From IMG/VR virus record IMGVR_UViG_3300033463_000012: DNA of 64,000 nt; one strand, written 5' to 3'. Under the pieces are notes generated by a model. It was not told the DNA's origin and did not search any database. It saw only the letters and a list, made by a program, of their open reading frames with translations. Every line of letters starts with the position of its first letter. Positions within the stretch are counted from its first letter, which is position 1. Of this stretch, positions 17,707-31,094 are shown piece by piece. The stretch is from a virus (taxonomy: Duplodnaviria; Caudoviricetes). A program made the translations under genes and the position numbers.

Positions 17707-18999
17707 ATGAACACAAAGGAACTTTTCGAAGCCATCAAGAACACCCCCGGTCACGTGGAAAAGTCCAAGCTCGTCCACGCGAACATGACTGACGGACTCA
17801 AGGGCATCCTCGCCTACACCTACACTCGGGACCGCTACCACGTTCGCTCCACCAACGTGACCATCCCCGCTCCCGGCACGGACGACCTCATCTCCGTTTT
17901 CAACACCTACCCCAAGGCCACTCTGGACGACCTGAAGGCGGGGAAGATTTCCGGCAACGCGGGCATCGCGGCGGTCGAAAAGGTCCTCTCCACACTGGAC
18001 GCCTACAGCCAGCAGGTCTATCTCGCGGTCCTCGATCATAACCTCAAACTCGGGGTTTCTTCCTCGGTCATCAAGGATCTCGGCCTCAACGACAAGTTCG
18101 AAGTCGCGCTCGCCGCCAAGCTGCAGGACCAGAAGGGTTTGGACGTGTTCGACGGCAACTGGTTCGTCTCCCGCAAGCTGGACGGTTGCAGGTGCGTGGC
18201 GGAAGTCAACTGCGAAACTCGGGAAGTGAAGTTCCTTTCTCGCCAGAACAAGGAATTCACCACCCTCTCCAACCTGGTCGAGCCCATCCTCGCCAAGTTC
18301 CCCGAAACCGAAGGTATCTTCTATCTCGACGGGGAAATCTGCCTGGTGGACGACGAAGGAAACGAGGACTTCAAGGGGGTGATCTCCGAAGTCAGGAAGA
18401 AGAATCACACCATGGAACATCCCGCCTACAACGTCTTCGACCTGCTCACCTACGACGAGTTCTGGGGCACGGTGAAGTCTCCCATCTTTTCCCTCCGCCA
18501 CAAGGCCATCATCGATCGCGAGTTCGATGGGGTCTTTGTCCGCCCCCTCAAGCAGGAACGGGTCACCTCGGAAGAACAGTTCCTCAGGTGGAAGGAAGAA
18601 GTCAAGAAGGGTGGCTGGGAAGGCCTGATGCTCCGCAAGGACGCTCCCTATCTCTCGGGTCGCACGAAGGAACTCCTCAAGGTCAAGGACATGCAGGACG
18701 CCGAATACGTGGTCGAAGACGTGGTCCGCGGAGACATCTCCTACGCTGAACCGGGTCGCGGCCAGGTCACCTTCACGGACGTCATCAAGGCGCTCGTCAT
18801 CTCCCACAAGGGGGACAAGGTTCAGGTTGGCTCCGGTCTTTCCAAGGAACAGCGGCTGGAATGGGCGAAGAATCCTGCGGCCATCATCGGCAAGACGATC
18901 ACGGTCCAATACTTCGAAGAAACTCAGGCGAAGGACGGGACCTACTCGCTCCGCTTCCCCATCCTCAAGATTGTCTACGAGAACGGGCGCAACTGCTAG
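17707..18999 (+). CDS. ATP-dependent DNA ligase
   Basis: KLDGCRC, LDGEI, VFDLL, EGLMLRK, LLKVK, VGSG, TVQYFE, SLRFP. Confidence 0.96.
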   Translation: MNTKELFEAIKNTPGHVEKSKLVHANMTDGLKGILAYTYTRDRYHVRSTNVTIPAPGTDDLISVFNTYPKATLDDLKAGKISGNAGIAAVEKVLSTLDAYSQQVYLAVLDHNLKLGVSSSVIKDLGLNDKFEVALAAKLQDQKGLDVFDGNWFVSRKLDGCRCVAEVNCETREVKFLSRQNKEFTTLSNLVEPILAKFPETEGIFYLDGEICLVDDEGNEDFKGVISEVRKKNHTMEHPAYNVFDLLTYDEFWGTVKSPIFSLRHKAIIDREFDGVFVRPLKQERVTSEEQFLRWKEEVKKGGWEGLMLRKDAPYLSGRTKELLKVKDMQDAEYVVEDVVRGDISYAEPGRGQVTFTDVIKALVISHKGDKVQVGSGLSKEQRLEWAKNPAAIIGKTITVQYFEETQAKDGTYSLRFPILKIVYENGRNC

Positions 19000-19759: not shown

Positions 19760-19765
19760 TGTTTT

Positions 19766-19856
19766 AGGAGTCGCTCCACCTCGCGGTCTTATAAGCCGTT
19801 GCGCATAATAAATCAGGTGGCGGTGCGCATGTTGGGTTCAATTCCCTCGACTCCTA
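19766..19856 (+). tRNA. Non-canonical tRNA-Ile(TAT)-like RNA, no D-arm, long variable arm
   Basis: Acceptor AGGAGTC/GACTCCT+A; GCGGT-CT TAT AA-GCCGT; TGCGCAT/GTGCGCA arm; GGTTCAATTCC. Confidence 0.7.
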
Positions 19857-19932: not shown

Positions 19933-20495
19933 GAAGCAGCTCCACTGAAACTCGGTAGCAAGTGGAGACCCGTTGGAATCGAGTTGTCGTGAACGGGTGG
20001 GTCGTTTTCCGTGACCCAGAATTAGTTGTTGTAAAGGACACCAAAGTCCTATGATTGACGTTCCAAAGCGGATATCTCATAGGGCAACGGAATAAAGTTT
20101 ATGGGCGACCACCGAAAACGTCGATACCATGCCGGAAACACCACATGTTCAGAGCGTGTTGCAACAGCATGGTCCCTTGGCACTTCGTCAAGTAGCACGA
20201 TAGGTGCGAGCCCTTTGATTTTCGTTTCCGTTGAATCTATCTTTTCGGAAACGACCACCGGAAGGCGTTGGGATAGAACAGCGCTTGACAGATCATATTC
20301 GTGGTCCTCCGGTGGAAACCTTTTCACTTCAGACCATCGCTTCGATTTGATTTGAAGTGAACCCATCGGGAGAGGTCCCAGAATCGAAGCAACTGCTCTA
20401 ATTGTTGAGCAAGAATGATAAACCCTCGTCATAGCTTGATAGTGACCTATTTGGCCAATAGCAACCTTTCAAGTGATTGATGAACCGATGGGAAC
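19933..20495 (+). ncRNA. Large highly structured ncRNA (~560 nt), ROOL-like candidate
   Basis: More than 12 stems and 3 loop-mediated pairings fill the gap between two tRNAs; no credible RBS-led ORF. Confidence 0.75.
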
Positions 20496-20501
20496 ACTTT
20501 T

Positions 20502-20592
20502 GGGAGATTGGCCGAGTTGGTCGATGGCGGCGGTCTCGAAAACCGCAGGTGGACCTCAAGTTCATCCGCAGGTTCGAATCCTGCATCTCCCG
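20502..20592 (+). tRNA. tRNA-Ser(CGA), no encoded CCA
   Basis: GGGAGAT/ATCTCCC+G; GCGGT-CT CGA AA-ACCGC; long variable arm. Confidence 0.93.
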
Positions 20593-20602
20593 TTTTGACT
20601 TT

Positions 20603-20706
20603 CTGGAGCGTGGCCGAGTGGATTATGGCGGCTAGTGGGGTGGCAACTCACGGCTTGACGCTCTCGCCGGGCGCCTCGTGGGTTCGAATCCCACCGTTCC
20701 AGACCA
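20603..20706 (+). tRNA. Atypical tRNA-like RNA (8-bp acceptor stem, extended anticodon arm, GGC at loop centre, long variable arm, encoded CCA)
   Basis: CTGGAGCG/CGTTCCAG+A+CCA; Ser-type D arm; GTGGG TTCGAAT CCCAC T arm. Confidence 0.7.
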
Positions 20707-20790
20707 GGGTGAACGCTAACGATGGCGAGTTAGGAGAGACTGTAAATCCCTTGCCTTTCGGCTCAGGAGGTTCGAATCCTTCTTCACCCA
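20707..20790 (+). tRNA. tRNA-Tyr(GTA), no encoded CCA
   Basis: GGGTGAA/TTCACCC+A; CT GTA AA loop; variable arm GCC TTTC GGC. Confidence 0.88.
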
Positions 20791-20902
20791 CTTCGAAGGG
20801 ACAGATTCCGAGGTTTAGCCATTGTCCCCGGAATTTGAAGGATGTTTCTTCCCCGTTTCCTTCCTTCTCACCTTCGAGCACTTTCACAAAAACGGAGAAC
20901 AC

Positions 20903-22634: not shown

Positions 22635-24206
22635 ATGGCTTTTGTACCTAATTTCAGTGATACGTTACGATGGGAAGGGGAGCAGATTGAATACACCCCC
22701 GAAATGCTCATCGAATGGAAGAAGTGTCACGATGACATCATTTATTTCGCCGAAAAGTATGTCTATGTGAACAACCTGGACACTGGCTACAATCTCGTCA
22801 AACTCCGTGACTATCAGAAGGAATTGCTGCTTGCCTACATGGATGATTCAGACCCGGACAAGAGAAACACCGTGGTCCTTTCCTCACGACAGTCAGGCAA
22901 GACGGAAACTTCATCGATCTTCATGCTGCACTACATCTTGTTCAATGAATACAAGAAGGTTGCAGTCCTCGCGAACCAGGCGAACCTTGCATTCGAAATC
23001 GTGTCCAACATCAAGATGAAGTATGAGCACTTGCCGAAATTCCTTCAACAGGGAATCAAGCGAGTTGGTGGATGGGCCGCGGGAAGAATCAAGTTGGAGA
23101 ATGGGTGCGAAATGAGAGCGGGCGCCACGACACCACACTCGATTCGTGGCTTTTCGGTCAATGTCCTGTTCTTGGACGAATTCGGAATCATTGACTCGAA
23201 GATGGCGAAGGAATTCATCAAGGCAGTCTTCCCCACCGTATCTTCCGGCAAGACGTCAAAAATCATCATCTCCTCCACCCCGAAAGGAATGAATCACCTG
23301 TATGACATTTGGGAAAAGGCGACCCGTGGTGTAGGTACATTCAAGCCGATCAAGGTCGACTGGACAAGAGTGCCAGGAAGGGACGAGAACTTCAAGAAGA
23401 AGCAGATCGAGGACATAGGCATTTTGGCCTGGAGGCAGGAATATGAATGCGCCTTCCTCGGTTCGTCCAAGTTGCTACTTGAAGGCGACTCCCTGATGTC
23501 CTACGGGATTCCGAAAGAGCCGATCAGATATGAATACAATGAACGTTTGAGGATCTACGAGGACTACAAGCAAGGTTGTTCCTATGTGATCGGTGTTGAC
23601 CCTGCAGTAGGAAACGGTGGAGACGACTCTTGTATACAGATATTGAGGATAGACGGCAAGGACAAGTTGGAACAAGTCGCGGTGTTCAATGACAGTCAGA
23701 CTCAATACGAGACGTTCTGTCAAATAGTGGTGGAACTTGCAGCTCGATACAACAATCCACCGATGATGGTGGAAAACAATGGCGTAGGTTCCGCAGTGGC
23801 CAACAAATTGTTCTATGATCTCGAATACCCCGAAATGGTTCACCTGGCCAAAAAGGGAATTGGTTGTCCTTCCTCCAAGCAGACCAAGTTGGAAATGTGC
23901 CTGTTCTTCAAGCAGTATTTCGAACAAGGCAAAATCAAGTTGAATGACTCCCAGACAATAAGGCAGCTGACCACGTTCGAAGAAGTGCAGCCGAACATAT
24001 TCAAGGCGGCGGGAACGGCTCACGATGACTTGGTCATGGCTTTGCTCTGGGCACTCTATTATTTGAAGACACCGTTCTTTGAAGAGGAAGCGGTATTGCC
24101 ACCTGAAATGCAAATCCCTGAACAAGAACCGATCAATGCCTTCATCTCGTCTCAAGGCAATGGATCCTTCTTGGACGAGGAATACATAGGTGGCGGTTGG
24201 GTCTAA
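22635..24206 (+). CDS. gp17: Terminase large subunit gp17
   Basis: LRDYQ, SRQSGKT, LFLDEF, SSTPKGMNH, QEYEC.FLGS, IGVDPA, HDDLVMAL. Confidence 0.97.
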   Translation: MAFVPNFSDTLRWEGEQIEYTPEMLIEWKKCHDDIIYFAEKYVYVNNLDTGYNLVKLRDYQKELLLAYMDDSDPDKRNTVVLSSRQSGKTETSSIFMLHYILFNEYKKVAVLANQANLAFEIVSNIKMKYEHLPKFLQQGIKRVGGWAAGRIKLENGCEMRAGATTPHSIRGFSVNVLFLDEFGIIDSKMAKEFIKAVFPTVSSGKTSKIIISSTPKGMNHLYDIWEKATRGVGTFKPIKVDWTRVPGRDENFKKKQIEDIGILAWRQEYECAFLGSSKLLLEGDSLMSYGIPKEPIRYEYNERLRIYEDYKQGCSYVIGVDPAVGNGGDDSCIQILRIDGKDKLEQVAVFNDSQTQYETFCQIVVELAARYNNPPMMVENNGVGSAVANKLFYDLEYPEMVHLAKKGIGCPSSKQTKLEMCLFFKQYFEQGKIKLNDSQTIRQLTTFEEVQPNIFKAAGTAHDDLVMALLWALYYLKTPFFEEEAVLPPEMQIPEQEPINAFISSQGNGSFLDEEYIGGGWV

Positions 24207-29624: not shown

Positions 29625-31094
29625 ATGTTCTACAGGGAACTGTTTGAAGAATTCAAGAAATGGGTGACTTCCTCTCACATGGAGGAAGAGGTCCAGGATG
29701 CCTACGAAACGGGTGACATCAGTGTCTTCGACGAAATCCTCGAACAGTTCGAATTCTTTGTACAACATGAAGTCAAGGCGGATGACATCGTTTCCATGGT
29801 GGACGATTGGTGCGAACTTCAACCACTGACTGAAAGTGCAGAAAGCAGCATTGACTGGAACTCGTTTTCAGACCCGGACATTCAGAAGGGTGTTGATCTG
29901 ATGCGAAAGATAAATGACTGCGGTTACGAGGCATACATAGTCGGTGGCTGTGTTCGTGATATCGTCAATGGAGACAAGGACGTTCATGACATTGACATTG
30001 CCACCAATATGCCAATTTCGGAACTGAAGAGCAAGTTTCACACCGCAGACAATGGCGGGGAGAAACATGGAACAATTCTTGTCGAAAACGACGGAACCAT
30101 GTTCGAGGTGACTCAATTCAGAACCGAAACTGGTTATAGCGACGGACGACATCCTGACAAAGTGGATTGGACAAATTCATTCGAAGCCGACACCAAACGT
30201 CGTGACTTCACCATAAACGCCATGGGCATAGATGCAGATGGAAAGGTGATCGACTACAATGGTGGAATGGACGACCTACGCAACAAAGTGCTTCGTGCAG
30301 TAGGAAATCCCGTTGAACGTTTCACCGAGGACGCCTTGCGTATCATGCGCGCCATGCGTTTTGCCGCTCGATTCGACATGACCATAGCTGAAGAGACAAT
30401 GGAAGGAATAGTCGCTTGCAAGGATCAGCTGAGCAACATTGCAGTGGAACGCATCCAGGCCGAAATGATCAAGACTGCTGAATATGGCTCCAAACAGTTC
30501 GCGATCATTGTTTCCTTGATGAACGACACTGGATGCGGTGAGGTAATCGATCCTTATGGTTTCGTGGATTGGGGCAAGGCGACGGATTTGACCGAAGCAA
30601 GGGCACTGAATCCATTGTTCCCCGAATTGGACAAGGACGTCATAGTCTCCTTGGCCCTGCTGTTCTATGGAAGTGACACAAACAAGGCCATGTCATATTT
30701 CAGATGTTCAGGTGATCAGACCAGGAGCGTTGGATTCATCTATGACAACTTGGAGAATTACAGGCACCTTGAAGATTTGGACCCGATCAATGCCATTAAA
30801 ATTGTGAACAACAAGGACTTTGATCGGCTGCGTGAAGTGAACCATGCGATCGAAGGACATGACAGTGAAAGCGCCAAGGTCATTCCTGTGATCGAAATGC
30901 TGATCGACAAGGCATTGCCGAGATTCAAGGACATTTCCGCGATGATGAAGAAAGCTGGAATAAAATCTGGACAAAACTACGGAATCATCCAGAAGAAAAT
31001 TCAGAACAAAATCTGCAAGATGTATATGGACGGGATTGAACCGACCGATGATCAGATAATGGAAATGCTGATCAAATACAGTGAGCTAAATTAG
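29625..31094 (+). CDS. cca: tRNA nucleotidyltransferase (class II CCA-adding/poly(A) polymerase family) with ~70-aa N-terminal extension
   Basis: AYIVGGCVRD, DIDIAT, EVTQFRTE, RRDFTINAM, RFTEDALRIMRAMRF, ERI. Confidence 0.92.
   Translation: MFYRELFEEFKKWVTSSHMEEEVQDAYETGDISVFDEILEQFEFFVQHEVKADDIVSMVDDWCELQPLTESAESSIDWNSFSDPDIQKGVDLMRKINDCGYEAYIVGGCVRDIVNGDKDVHDIDIATNMPISELKSKFHTADNGGEKHGTILVENDGTMFEVTQFRTETGYSDGRHPDKVDWTNSFEADTKRRDFTINAMGIDADGKVIDYNGGMDDLRNKVLRAVGNPVERFTEDALRIMRAMRFAARFDMTIAEETMEGIVACKDQLSNIAVERIQAEMIKTAEYGSKQFAIIVSLMNDTGCGEVIDPYGFVDWGKATDLTEARALNPLFPELDKDVIVSLALLFYGSDTNKAMSYFRCSGDQTRSVGFIYDNLENYRHLEDLDPINAIKIVNNKDFDRLREVNHAIEGHDSESAKVIPVIEMLIDKALPRFKDISAMMKKAGIKSGQNYGIIQKKIQNKICKMYMDGIEPTDDQIMEMLIKYSELN

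What the first reader, a model, noticed from the sequence alone, without database searches (positions are those of the whole stretch)
20603..20706. tRNA-like RNA with 8-bp acceptor stem, extended anticodon arm and apparently mismatched identity
Seen: acceptor CTGGAGCG/CGTTCCAG followed by A-CCA, the only encoded CCA in the cluster. The D arm is nearly that of the neighbouring tRNA-Ser (GCCGAGTGG..ATGGC). The anticodon arm is GCT-A-GTGGG[GTGGCAA]CTCAC-GGC, about 8 bp with a bulge, and a long variable arm CGCTC/GGGCG follows. The loop centre GGC would read Ala codons, but there is no G3-U70 Ala determinant. An alternative 7-bp register with discriminator G is also possible. Known: 8/5 folds occur in bacterial tRNA-Sec, and long variable arms drive SerRS recognition. 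Inference: a non-translating amino-acid donor, a decoy for host anticodon nucleases, a mis-sense or frameshift tRNA, or a decayed gene.
Basis: partly seen in the sequence, partly recalled or inferred. Interest (0 to 1): 0.72.

Follow-up and report, generated by a model that had tools for sequence, protein, structure and literature searches.

The report
Phage tRNA with overlong anticodon arm
A T4-like phage from the cattle gut carries a conserved serine-tRNA-shaped RNA whose codon-reading arm ends in an alanine anticodon loop but is three base pairs too long, so it is a real gene that probably does not read codons in the ordinary way.

Summary
Window 20603-20706 (+) is a 104-nt class II tRNA-like gene between tRNA-Ser(CGA) and tRNA-Tyr. 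It has a serine-type D arm and a 7-bp variable arm. Its anticodon arm is a normal 5-bp stem and 7-nt loop (U33, GGC, A37) set on three extra pairs and a bulged A. It also has a possible 8th acceptor pair and the only encoded CCA in the cluster.

It is not a decayed gene.
- Near-identical copies occur in other ruminant and gut metagenomes, in three further gene orders.
- A diverged copy sits in a phage with 72% TerL identity (L038). It keeps every internal pair, with six compensatory double changes, one of them in the anticodon stem.
- The L038 loop is AUGGCAU, the A32-U38 signature of real tRNA-Ala(GGC).

The 8th pair and the CCA are absent from L038, so they belong to the window's lineage, not to the whole family. 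The three extra pairs never vary, so covariation does not test them.

No other member was found in IMG/VR, JGI metagenomes, GTDB genomes or cultured phages.

Best reading: a chargeable (probably seryl) tRNA mimic that is not an ordinary elongator. Its function is unknown.

The scan has noted other phage tRNA mimics on other DNA, none of them this family.

The parts
20603..20706 (+). The whole tRNA-like RNA in the 8-bp register, including the encoded ACCA (104 nt)
   Evidence: CM R1 scores it at 139.6 bits, and it is the only copy in the 132-kb record.
20603..20610 (+). Acceptor stem, 5' strand. C20603 is the optional 8th pair (position -1 in the 7-bp register). 20608 is G (a G.U pair) here and A (an A-U pair) in relatives.
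20613..20629 (+). Serine-type D arm: a 3-bp stem and a 17-nt arm with G18 G19
   Evidence: It is 19/20 identical to the D arm of tRNA-Ser(CGA) in L098.
20631..20654 (+). Extended anticodon arm. The extra pairs (pedestal) are 20631-20633 with 20652-20654. The bulged A is 20634. The distal 5-bp stem is 20635-20639 with 20647-20651. The loop is 20640-20646 and the anticodon GGC is 20642-20644.
   Evidence: The distal stem has one compensatory double change and one G.U to G-C change in L038, and the pedestal is invariant.
20657..20675 (+). Long variable arm with a 7-bp stem (one A.C mismatch here, A-U in L038) and a 5-nt loop. These are the same dimensions as the variable arm of the neighbouring tRNA-Ser(CGA).
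20678..20694 (+). T arm: a 5-bp stem and a canonical 7-nt T loop
   Evidence: One compensatory double change in L038.
20695..20702 (+). Acceptor stem, 3' strand. G20702 is the discriminator in the 7-bp register or the partner of C20603 in the 8-bp register.
20703..20706 (+). Encoded ACCA. In the 8-bp register this is discriminator A plus CCA. Homology with relatives ends exactly here in three further contexts.
20501..20593 (+). Upstream neighbour, an ordinary tRNA-Ser(CGA)
20707..20791 (+). Downstream neighbour, tRNA-Tyr(GUA). Cutting at its 5' end by RNase P would free the ACCA 3' end (inference).
29625..31094 (+). Context: a phage-encoded nucleotidyltransferase of the CCA-adding / poly(A) polymerase family. 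It could serve the cluster's tRNAs that lack CCA.

Best explanation
This is a real, conserved phage gene for a chimeric class II tRNA-like RNA. Its body is that of a bacterial-type tRNA-Ser: the D-arm architecture, a 7-bp variable arm, an intact elbow and G2-C71.

In place of the lower anticodon stem and loop it carries a complete 17-nt anticodon stem-loop of tRNA-Ala(GGC) type. This sits on three leftover pairs and a bulged A.

The RNA is transcribed with the tRNA cluster and cut out by RNase P. In the window's lineage C(-1) pairs with G73. RNase P should therefore leave an 8-bp acceptor stem, and the encoded ACCA becomes the finished 3' end when the adjacent tRNA-Tyr is cut.

SerRS does not read the anticodon arm, so host SerRS probably charges the RNA.

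The anticodon sits about three pairs (roughly 8 Angstrom and about 100 degrees of twist) out of register with the CCA end. The RNA therefore most likely cannot serve as an ordinary A-site or P-site substrate. It would then act as a tRNA mimic: a decoy or sponge for a host factor that binds tRNA, or a non-ribosomal aminoacyl carrier.

What is shown: the gene, its fold, its conservation and its mosaic make-up. What is inferred: processing, charging, exclusion from decoding and the final role.
For: - Rfam's tRNA model scores the gene above its gathering score: 33.4 bits here and 37.9 bits in L085.
- All 28-31 cloverleaf pairs are kept in three distinct sequences. Six pairs carry compensatory double changes, including one in the distal anticodon stem and one in the T stem. 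None of 500 shuffles reach this.
- The rod-like fold preferred by energy breaks three to four pairs in L038 and shows no double change in its internal helices.
- Near-identical copies lie in 11 ENA/Logan contigs, between tRNA-Tyr and tRNA-Ser(UGA). Copies also occur in contigs of three other studies, in other gene orders. The only change inside the gene there is 20608 G>A, which turns the G.U pair into A-U.
- Homology ends exactly at the ACCA in three further contexts.
- The D arm is 19/20 identical to that of an ordinary tRNA-Ser(CGA). That tRNA occupies the same genomic slot in L098/L099 that this RNA occupies in L038.
- The variable arm has the same 7-bp stem and 5-nt loop as the neighbouring tRNA-Ser.
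- The L038 loop carries A32 and U38 around GGC, reported as the peculiarity of real tRNA-Ala(GGC) (PMC5041475).
- Natural anticodon stems are described only up to 6 bp: Sec, Pyl, mt-Ser(UCN) and allo-tRNA (PMC7609411).
- GCC and GCT make up 54% of the phage's own alanine codons, so an efficient serine-inserting decoder would damage the phage's own proteins.
- From established knowledge, not tested here: SerRS recognises the variable arm and acceptor, not the anticodon; and pairing of -1 with 73 shifts RNase P cleavage, as in tRNA-His.
Against: - There are only three distinct sequences, effectively two lineages.
- The three extra pairs and the bulged A never vary, so covariation does not test them.
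- A well-kept, authentic tRNA-Ala(GGC)-type loop (U33, A37, purine 32) is what a working decoder would show.
- L038 has a normal 7/5 acceptor/T branch, which EF-Tu could bind.
- The 8th pair and the CCA are missing in L038, so they cannot be essential to the family.
- The same cluster holds other oddly shaped tRNAs that still look like decoders, so this lineage may tolerate unusual shapes.
- No partner protein is conserved next to the gene.
- No factor using aminoacyl-tRNA was found in the 132-kb piece, which is only 66% complete.
Confidence: 0.45

Rival explanations
1. It is a working missense (dual-identity) tRNA. It is charged with serine through its class II body, enters the ribosome despite the long anticodon arm, and puts serine, or whatever it carries, at GCC/GCU alanine codons.
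For: - The loop is a canonical 7-nt loop with U33, GGC and A37 in all copies. The L038 loop equals the A32-U38 form typical of real tRNA-Ala(GGC).
- L038 has a normal 7/5 branch.
- GCC is the phage's commonest alanine codon.
- Class II tRNAs with anticodons foreign to their body, proposed as missense or nonsense suppressors, are described: allo-tRNAs (PMC5389517).
Against: - Three extra pairs move and rotate the anticodon relative to the CCA end. No natural decoder with more than 6 anticodon-stem pairs and a full D arm is described (PMC7609411).
- Serine at 54% of the phage's own alanine codons would be costly.
- There is no G3:U70, so correct alanine charging is not expected.
Confidence: 0.2
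2. It is a cis-acting structural module of the polycistronic tRNA transcript. Its tRNA shape would recruit RNase P or other processing enzymes, or stabilise neighbouring tRNAs, and it would have no role as a free RNA.
For: - It always lies directly against other tRNA genes in the window's lineage, with spacers of 0-10 nt.
- Its end defines the 5' end of tRNA-Tyr in the window.
Against: - In L038 it stands alone, 100 nt or more from any gene and with no other tRNA in the 15.7 kb held.
- Gene order around it differs between relatives while the RNA itself is kept.
- Selection on the distal anticodon stem and loop is not explained.
Confidence: 0.1
3. It is a decaying tRNA-Ser gene, or a recombination scar with no function.
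For: - Default ARAGORN does not call it.
- It looks like a mosaic of parts from cluster tRNAs.
- A related phage has an ordinary tRNA-Ser(CGA) in the slot where L038 has this RNA.
Against: - Six compensatory double changes and no broken internal pair between lineages whose TerL is only 72% identical.
- The substitution 20608 G>A improves a pair.
- The gene is retained through at least three rearrangements of the cluster.
Confidence: 0.03

Closest known systems
Bacterial and phage class II tRNA-Ser (within Rfam RF00005)
   Same: - D arm of the same length and architecture, and nearly the same sequence as phage tRNA-Ser(CGA).
- Long variable arm with a 7-bp stem and 5-nt loop.
- G2-C71, an intact elbow and a canonical T loop.
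- It sits beside, or in place of, tRNA-Ser genes.
   Different: - The anticodon is GGC (alanine codons).
- The anticodon stem has 8 pairs with a bulged A instead of 5.
- The window's lineage has an optional 8th acceptor pair and an encoded CCA.
tRNA-Ala(GGC) anticodon stem-loop (A32-U38 type; PMC5041475)
   Same: The 5-bp stem and 7-nt loop carry U33, GGC, A37 and a purine at 32. The L038 loop has the A32-U38 combination.
   Different: - There is no G3:U70 alanine determinant.
- The body is class II.
- The stem-loop is offset from the body by three pairs and a bulge.
allo-tRNAs and (8/4) tRNA-Ser of phages and rumen bacteria (Mukai et al. 2017, PMC5389517)
   Same: - Long-variable-arm tRNAs whose anticodons are foreign to their body.
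- Presumed serine identity.
- Found in phages and the rumen.
- Acceptor stems longer than 7 bp occur.
   Different: - allo-tRNAs keep a 12-bp acceptor/T branch (8/4 or 9/3) and have a Sec-like long D stem with a tetraloop.
- Here the branch is 8/5 or 7/5 and the D arm is ordinary serine type.
- The defining oddity here is the anticodon arm.
Bacterial tRNA-Sec (Rfam RF01852)
   Same: An 8/5 acceptor/T branch in the window's lineage, a long variable arm and charging by SerRS (presumed here).
   Different: - No 6-bp D stem with a 4-nt loop.
- The anticodon is not UCA.
- No RF01852 match was listed for it.
- L038 is 7/5.
tRNA-Pyl of Methanomassiliicoccales (M. alvus), whose anticodon stem is interrupted by an unpaired base (PMC7609411)
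   Same: A lengthened anticodon stem broken by a single unpaired adenosine.
   Different: - That stem has 6 pairs, with the bulge on the 3' side.
- It has a tiny variable loop and a CUA anticodon, and is a proven decoder in an archaeon.
- Here the stem has 8 pairs, with the bulge on the 5' side.
Phage T4 RNA C and RNA D, small stable RNAs from the T4 tRNA region (PMC3014915)
   Same: Small non-mRNA products encoded inside the tRNA cluster of a T4-type phage, with unknown function.
   Different: This RNA keeps a complete cloverleaf with an anticodon loop.

Membership tests
tRNA (Rfam RF00005) | Score at or above the gathering score (29 bits) of the covariance model | tested here: met
   33.4 bits for the window and 37.9 bits for L085. 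The L038 copy was not reported at E<=0.01 in a 44-kb search.
tRNA (canonical cloverleaf) | 5-bp anticodon stem directly after position 26 (6 bp at most in known exceptions) | tested here: not met
   There are 8 pairs plus a bulged A. Rfam aligns 29 nt where 17 are expected. The same holds in all copies.
tRNA (canonical cloverleaf) | 7-bp acceptor stem and 5-bp T stem | tested here: inconclusive
   L038 is 7/5. The window and its close relatives can form 8/5, and only that register gives an encoded CCA. The mature 5' end is unknown.
Bacterial tRNA-Ser | Class II body: 3-bp D stem with a serine-type D loop, and a long variable arm | tested here: met
   The D arm is 19/20 identical to that of tRNA-Ser(CGA) in L098.
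Bacterial tRNA-Ser | Serine anticodon (NGA or GCU) | tested here: not met
   GGC in all copies.
Bacterial tRNA-Ser | Aminoacylation by SerRS | not testable with these tools
   Needs an in vitro or in vivo charging assay.
tRNA-Ala | G3:U70 wobble pair in the acceptor stem | tested here: not met
   3:70 is G-C (window, either register) or C-G (L038). The only G.U (20608 with 20697) is not conserved.
tRNA-Sec (RF01852) | 13-bp acceptor/T branch, 6-bp D stem with a 4-nt loop, UCA anticodon, match to the model | tested here: not met
   Only the 8/5 branch is present, and only in the window's lineage. No RF01852 match for this stretch was listed at E<=10.
allo-tRNA (PMC5389517) | 12-bp branch arranged 8/4 or 9/3, with a Sec-like D stem-loop | tested here: not met
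   The T stem has 5 pairs in all copies and the D arm is serine type.
Known bacterial tRNA mimics in Rfam (skipping-rope/RCd1, DUF2693-FD, salivarius-1, YrlA, tmRNA) | Match to the family's covariance model | tested here: not met
   There is no match at gathering score. The only weak match at E<=10 is YrlA at 14 bits against 69, which is at chance level.

The most novel reading that the evidence does not exclude
The RNA really decodes. On this reading a tRNA with an 8-pair, bulged anticodon stem and a full D arm is accepted by the bacterial ribosome, and the phage uses it to place serine at GCC/GCU alanine codons. That would break the rule that the distance between anticodon and CCA end is fixed.
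Probability: 0.12. Interest if true: 0.9.

Novelty: new variant of a known kind. Interest (0 to 1): 0.6.

Why it matters
The length of the anticodon arm is one of the most constant features of tRNA, because the ribosome needs a fixed distance between anticodon and amino acid. Here selection keeps a serine-type tRNA body, an authentic alanine-type anticodon loop and a three-pair offset between them.

That leaves two possibilities. Either the ribosome tolerates more than is thought, or phages build chargeable tRNA look-alikes for another purpose, such as titrating host factors that attack or sense tRNA.

Both can be tested with simple charging and reporter assays. The pedestal-plus-loop design may also be of use for engineering orthogonal tRNAs. 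In addition, the gene shows how tRNA finders miss such genes in phage genomes.

Tried and rejected
- Default ARAGORN does not call the gene.
- ARAGORN in intron mode reads it as tRNA-Pro(GGG) with a 22-nt intron. I reject this because the supposed anticodon becomes AGG in L038, and because bacteria lack such introns.
- ARAGORN's 97-nt tRNA-Ala call on L038 has a mismatched acceptor stem and is a forced fit, though it picks the same anticodon stem-loop.
- The minimum-energy and RNAalifold folds are rod-like. I reject them because L038 breaks three to four of their pairs and they show no double change in their internal helices.
- Searches for more members found none.
  - An exact anticodon-arm scan of IMG/VR gave 0 hits.
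  - A degenerate arm pattern in IMG/VR gave 1 chance hit.
  - An anticodon-free arm pattern gave only chance hits in coding DNA, in JGI metagenomes and in GTDB genomes.
  - A pattern of D arm plus pedestal in IMG/VR gave 5 chance hits.
  - BLAST against cultured phages matched only T-arm fragments.
  - Loci found through the DNA ligase (<=41% identity) have no such gene.
  - Phages with TerL 50-72% identical (L039, L040, L042, L043, L079-L084) have none within the flanks held.
- A scan for class II genes with an unusually long distance between D loop and T loop found 25 other odd genes in IMG/VR. None is related (<=47 bits).
- Expression: no RNA holder was listed among the sequencing runs, so expression could not be assessed.
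- Partner proteins: the genes next to the L038 copy have no homologue in this genome. No EF-Tu-like GTPase, class II synthetase core, FemAB, RNA ligase or peptidyl-tRNA hydrolase was found in the 132-kb piece, which is 66% complete. The RNA_lig_T4_1 control rang nowhere, so that search says nothing.
- One contig look-up returned no DNA because the sample file was too large.

Full report
**Setting.** The window lies in a 132-kb IMG/VR virus record estimated to be 66% complete. The same DNA occurs in bovine gut metagenome runs. The phage is T4-like. It has a large terminase at 22635-24206 and a DNA ligase at 17707-18999, and its relatives carry T4-type portal, sheath, baseplate and gp23 genes.

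On the + strand between 19687 and 20791, ARAGORN finds tRNA-Asn(GUU), Gly(UCC), Ser(CGA) and Tyr(GUA). The finding fills the 113-nt gap between Ser and Tyr.

**The observation.**
- Acceptor: 20603-20610 pairs with 20695-20702 (8 pairs, one G.U), followed by ACCA.
- D arm: serine type, at 20613-20629.
- Anticodon arm (20631-20654): three pairs, a bulged A, five pairs and a 7-nt loop with U33, GGC and A37.
- T arm: canonical.
- CCA: none of the other four tRNAs has an encoded CCA.
- The ACCA touches the first base of tRNA-Tyr.

Rfam's tRNA model scores 33.4 bits (gathering score 29) in the 7-bp register with discriminator G. It skips 29 nt where it expects the 17-nt anticodon arm. ARAGORN misses the gene by default. 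In intron mode it produces an 8-bp-acceptor 'tRNA-Pro with intron', which I reject (see below).

**Relatives.** Pattern scans of IMG/VR, JGI metagenomes, GTDB genomes and cultured phages found no further copy. Relatives came instead from proteins encoded near the gene.
1. A contig whose terminase is 72% identical (L038) carries a solitary copy at L038:629-727.
2. Eleven ENA/Logan contigs have a 61%-identical copy of the small downstream protein. They carry one identical copy at L085:2701-2804 and equivalent positions, lying between tRNA-Tyr and tRNA-Ser(UGA).
3. Contigs from three other studies (sheep and gut metagenomes) were laid on the window. They hold 20497-20706 or 20600-20706 with a single change inside the gene, in two further gene orders.

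A covariance model built from the window and L038 scores the family at 129-140 bits and every other class II tRNA at 51 bits or less. The window's record holds only one copy.

**Is it under selection?** Yes. In the three-sequence alignment A2 every pair of the D, anticodon and T helices is a standard pair in all sequences.
- Six pairs carry changes on both sides: four in the acceptor stem, one in the distal anticodon stem (G-C to A-U) and one in the T stem.
- Three more pairs change between G.U and Watson-Crick.
- None of 500 shuffles reach these values, and slid structures pair in only 35-48% of cells.
- The one polymorphism among close relatives, 20608 G>A, converts the G.U pair of the acceptor stem into A-U.
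- Unpaired positions change far less than paired ones, as in working tRNAs.

The rod-like fold preferred by energy alone loses three to four pairs in L038 and gains no double change in its internal helices. The cloverleaf is therefore the supported structure. This rejects the pseudogene reading.

The limit is that there are only three distinct sequences. The three pedestal pairs and the bulged A are identical in all of them. Their pairing therefore rests on thermodynamics and on the exactly conserved count of extra nucleotides.

**What is family-wide and what is not.** The extended anticodon arm, the serine-type body and the GGC loop are in every copy. The 8th acceptor pair and the CCA are not. 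In L038 position 73 is A, so C(-1) cannot pair, the stem has 7 pairs (U1.G72), and AUG follows instead of CCA.

Within the window's lineage the ACCA is followed by three further, different sequences. In each case similarity stops exactly after the ACCA. A CCA in the right register is expected by chance only about once in 30-60. I therefore take the 8-bp plus ACCA form to be real for this lineage, but it is not defining for the family.

The phage also encodes a nucleotidyltransferase of the CCA-adding family (29625-31094). This enzyme could finish the other tRNAs.

**Origin.** The gene looks like a mosaic.
- Its D arm is 19/20 identical to that of an ordinary tRNA-Ser(CGA) in L098/L099. These phages are within 90% TerL identity of L038. 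They carry that tRNA-Ser in the very slot where L038 carries this RNA, just upstream of a variable minus-strand cassette of transferase genes.
- Its variable arm has the dimensions of the neighbouring tRNA-Ser's arm.
- Its T arm and acceptor resemble those of a long-armed tRNA(UAU) in the relatives.
- The distal 17 nt of the anticodon arm form a complete stem-loop. In L038 the loop has A32 and U38 around GGC, described as the special feature of genuine tRNA-Ala(GGC) (PMC5041475).

The simplest description is a tRNA-Ser whose lower anticodon stem and loop were replaced by a whole tRNA-Ala(GGC)-type stem-loop, leaving three pairs of the old stem as a pedestal. This is an inference.

**How it probably works.**
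- SerRS recognises the variable arm and acceptor stem and ignores the anticodon (established knowledge), so serine charging is likely.
- There is no G3:U70 in any register or copy, so alanine charging is not expected.
- Pairing of -1 with 73 is known to shift RNase P cleavage by one position, as in tRNA-His. This would give the 8-bp stem in the window's lineage.
- Natural anticodon stems are reported only up to 6 pairs (PMC7609411). Three extra pairs would displace and rotate the anticodon relative to the CCA end, which a single bulge is unlikely to undo.
- GCC and GCT are 54% of the phage's own alanine codons, so an efficient serine-inserting decoder would harm the phage itself.

I therefore favour a chargeable but non-decoding tRNA mimic (confidence 0.45). 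Its possible roles, all unproven, are a decoy for a host factor that binds or attacks tRNA, or an aminoacyl carrier outside translation.

Against this reading:
- The loop is exactly what a decoder would have.
- L038 has a normal 7/5 branch.
- The same cluster contains other strangely shaped tRNAs that still look like decoders.

A missense decoder therefore keeps a probability of about 0.2. No conserved neighbouring protein or obvious partner was found. No RNA data were available.

**Comparison with known kinds.**
- The RNA passes the general tRNA model.
- It fails the canonical anticodon-stem rule.
- It matches the tRNA-Ser body but not its anticodon.
- It lacks the alanine determinant.
- It is neither a tRNA-Sec nor an allo-tRNA, which need a 12-bp 8/4 or 9/3 branch or a Sec-type D arm (PMC5389517).
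- It matches none of the Rfam tRNA-mimic families.
- T4's RNA C and D are a loose positional analogue of unknown function (PMC3014915).

I class it as a new variant of a known kind. It is a small family, so far seen only in T4-like phages in ruminant and other gut metagenomes.

**Earlier notes of this scan.** The same stretch was read in an overlapping window as a 'tRNA mimic with no anticodon'. I find that it does have a well-formed anticodon loop. Other notes describe unrelated phage tRNA mimics on other genomes. They supplied leads to papers but no evidence for this gene.

Noticed in passing
window 19765-19856 (+): Between tRNA-Asn and tRNA-Gly lies another tRNA-like gene that ARAGORN misses. 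It has a 7-8-bp acceptor stem, an anticodon loop with UAU, a T arm, no D hairpin and a long variable arm. The variable-arm loop holds GGUGG, complementary to CCACC in the D region, so a pseudoknot is possible. Rfam gives only 23.7 bits, to the tRNA-Sec model.
   Followed up: partly
L085:2004-2094 (+), and the same gene in L088, L089 and L095: The close relatives carry a 91-nt tRNA(UAU) with a normal 4-bp D stem and a long variable arm. That arm has a 7-nt loop, CUGAUUA, which contains GAU, the anticodon of the major tRNA-Ile, so it may act as a pseudo-anticodon. Its acceptor and T arm resemble those of the RNA studied here. Rfam's tRNA model gives 55.3 bits.
   Followed up: partly
window 19933-20495 (+): About 560 nt without a credible ORF lie between tRNA-Gly and tRNA-Ser. 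Parts (19937-20118, 20223-20319) are conserved with substitutions in contigs of other studies, while 20320-20496 is absent there. No Rfam family matches. Another first-stage reader also noted this stretch.
   Followed up: partly
window 20707-20791 (+): tRNA-Tyr(GUA) is atypical. Rfam's general tRNA model does not report it, and the tRNA-Sec model gives 26.9 bits (31.8 in L085). It has a long D stem and a short D loop.
   Followed up: no
window 29625-31094 (+): A 489-aa nucleotidyltransferase with PolyA_pol head and RNA-binding domains, probably a phage CCA-adding enzyme.
   Followed up: partly
L054-L078 (IMG/VR loci): Twenty-five viral contigs carry class II-type tRNA-like genes with 55-72 nt between the D loop and the T loop. 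Several recurring types have the anticodon arm replaced or enlarged. In L068, for example, a 6-bp stem ends in a short helix capped by GAAA. They are unrelated to the present family.
   Followed up: no
L038:841-2108 and L098:1420-4044 (minus strand): Next to the tRNA slot, related phages carry different minus-strand cassettes of sugar or nucleotide transferase genes. L038 has Nucleotid_trans and DUF6926. L098 has ATPgrasp_TupA and Glyco_transf_34. This is a variable region at a conserved position upstream of the terminase.
   Followed up: no
L085:1574-1816 (+): An 80-aa HicB-like antitoxin gene lies directly upstream of the tRNA cluster in the close relatives.
   Followed up: no
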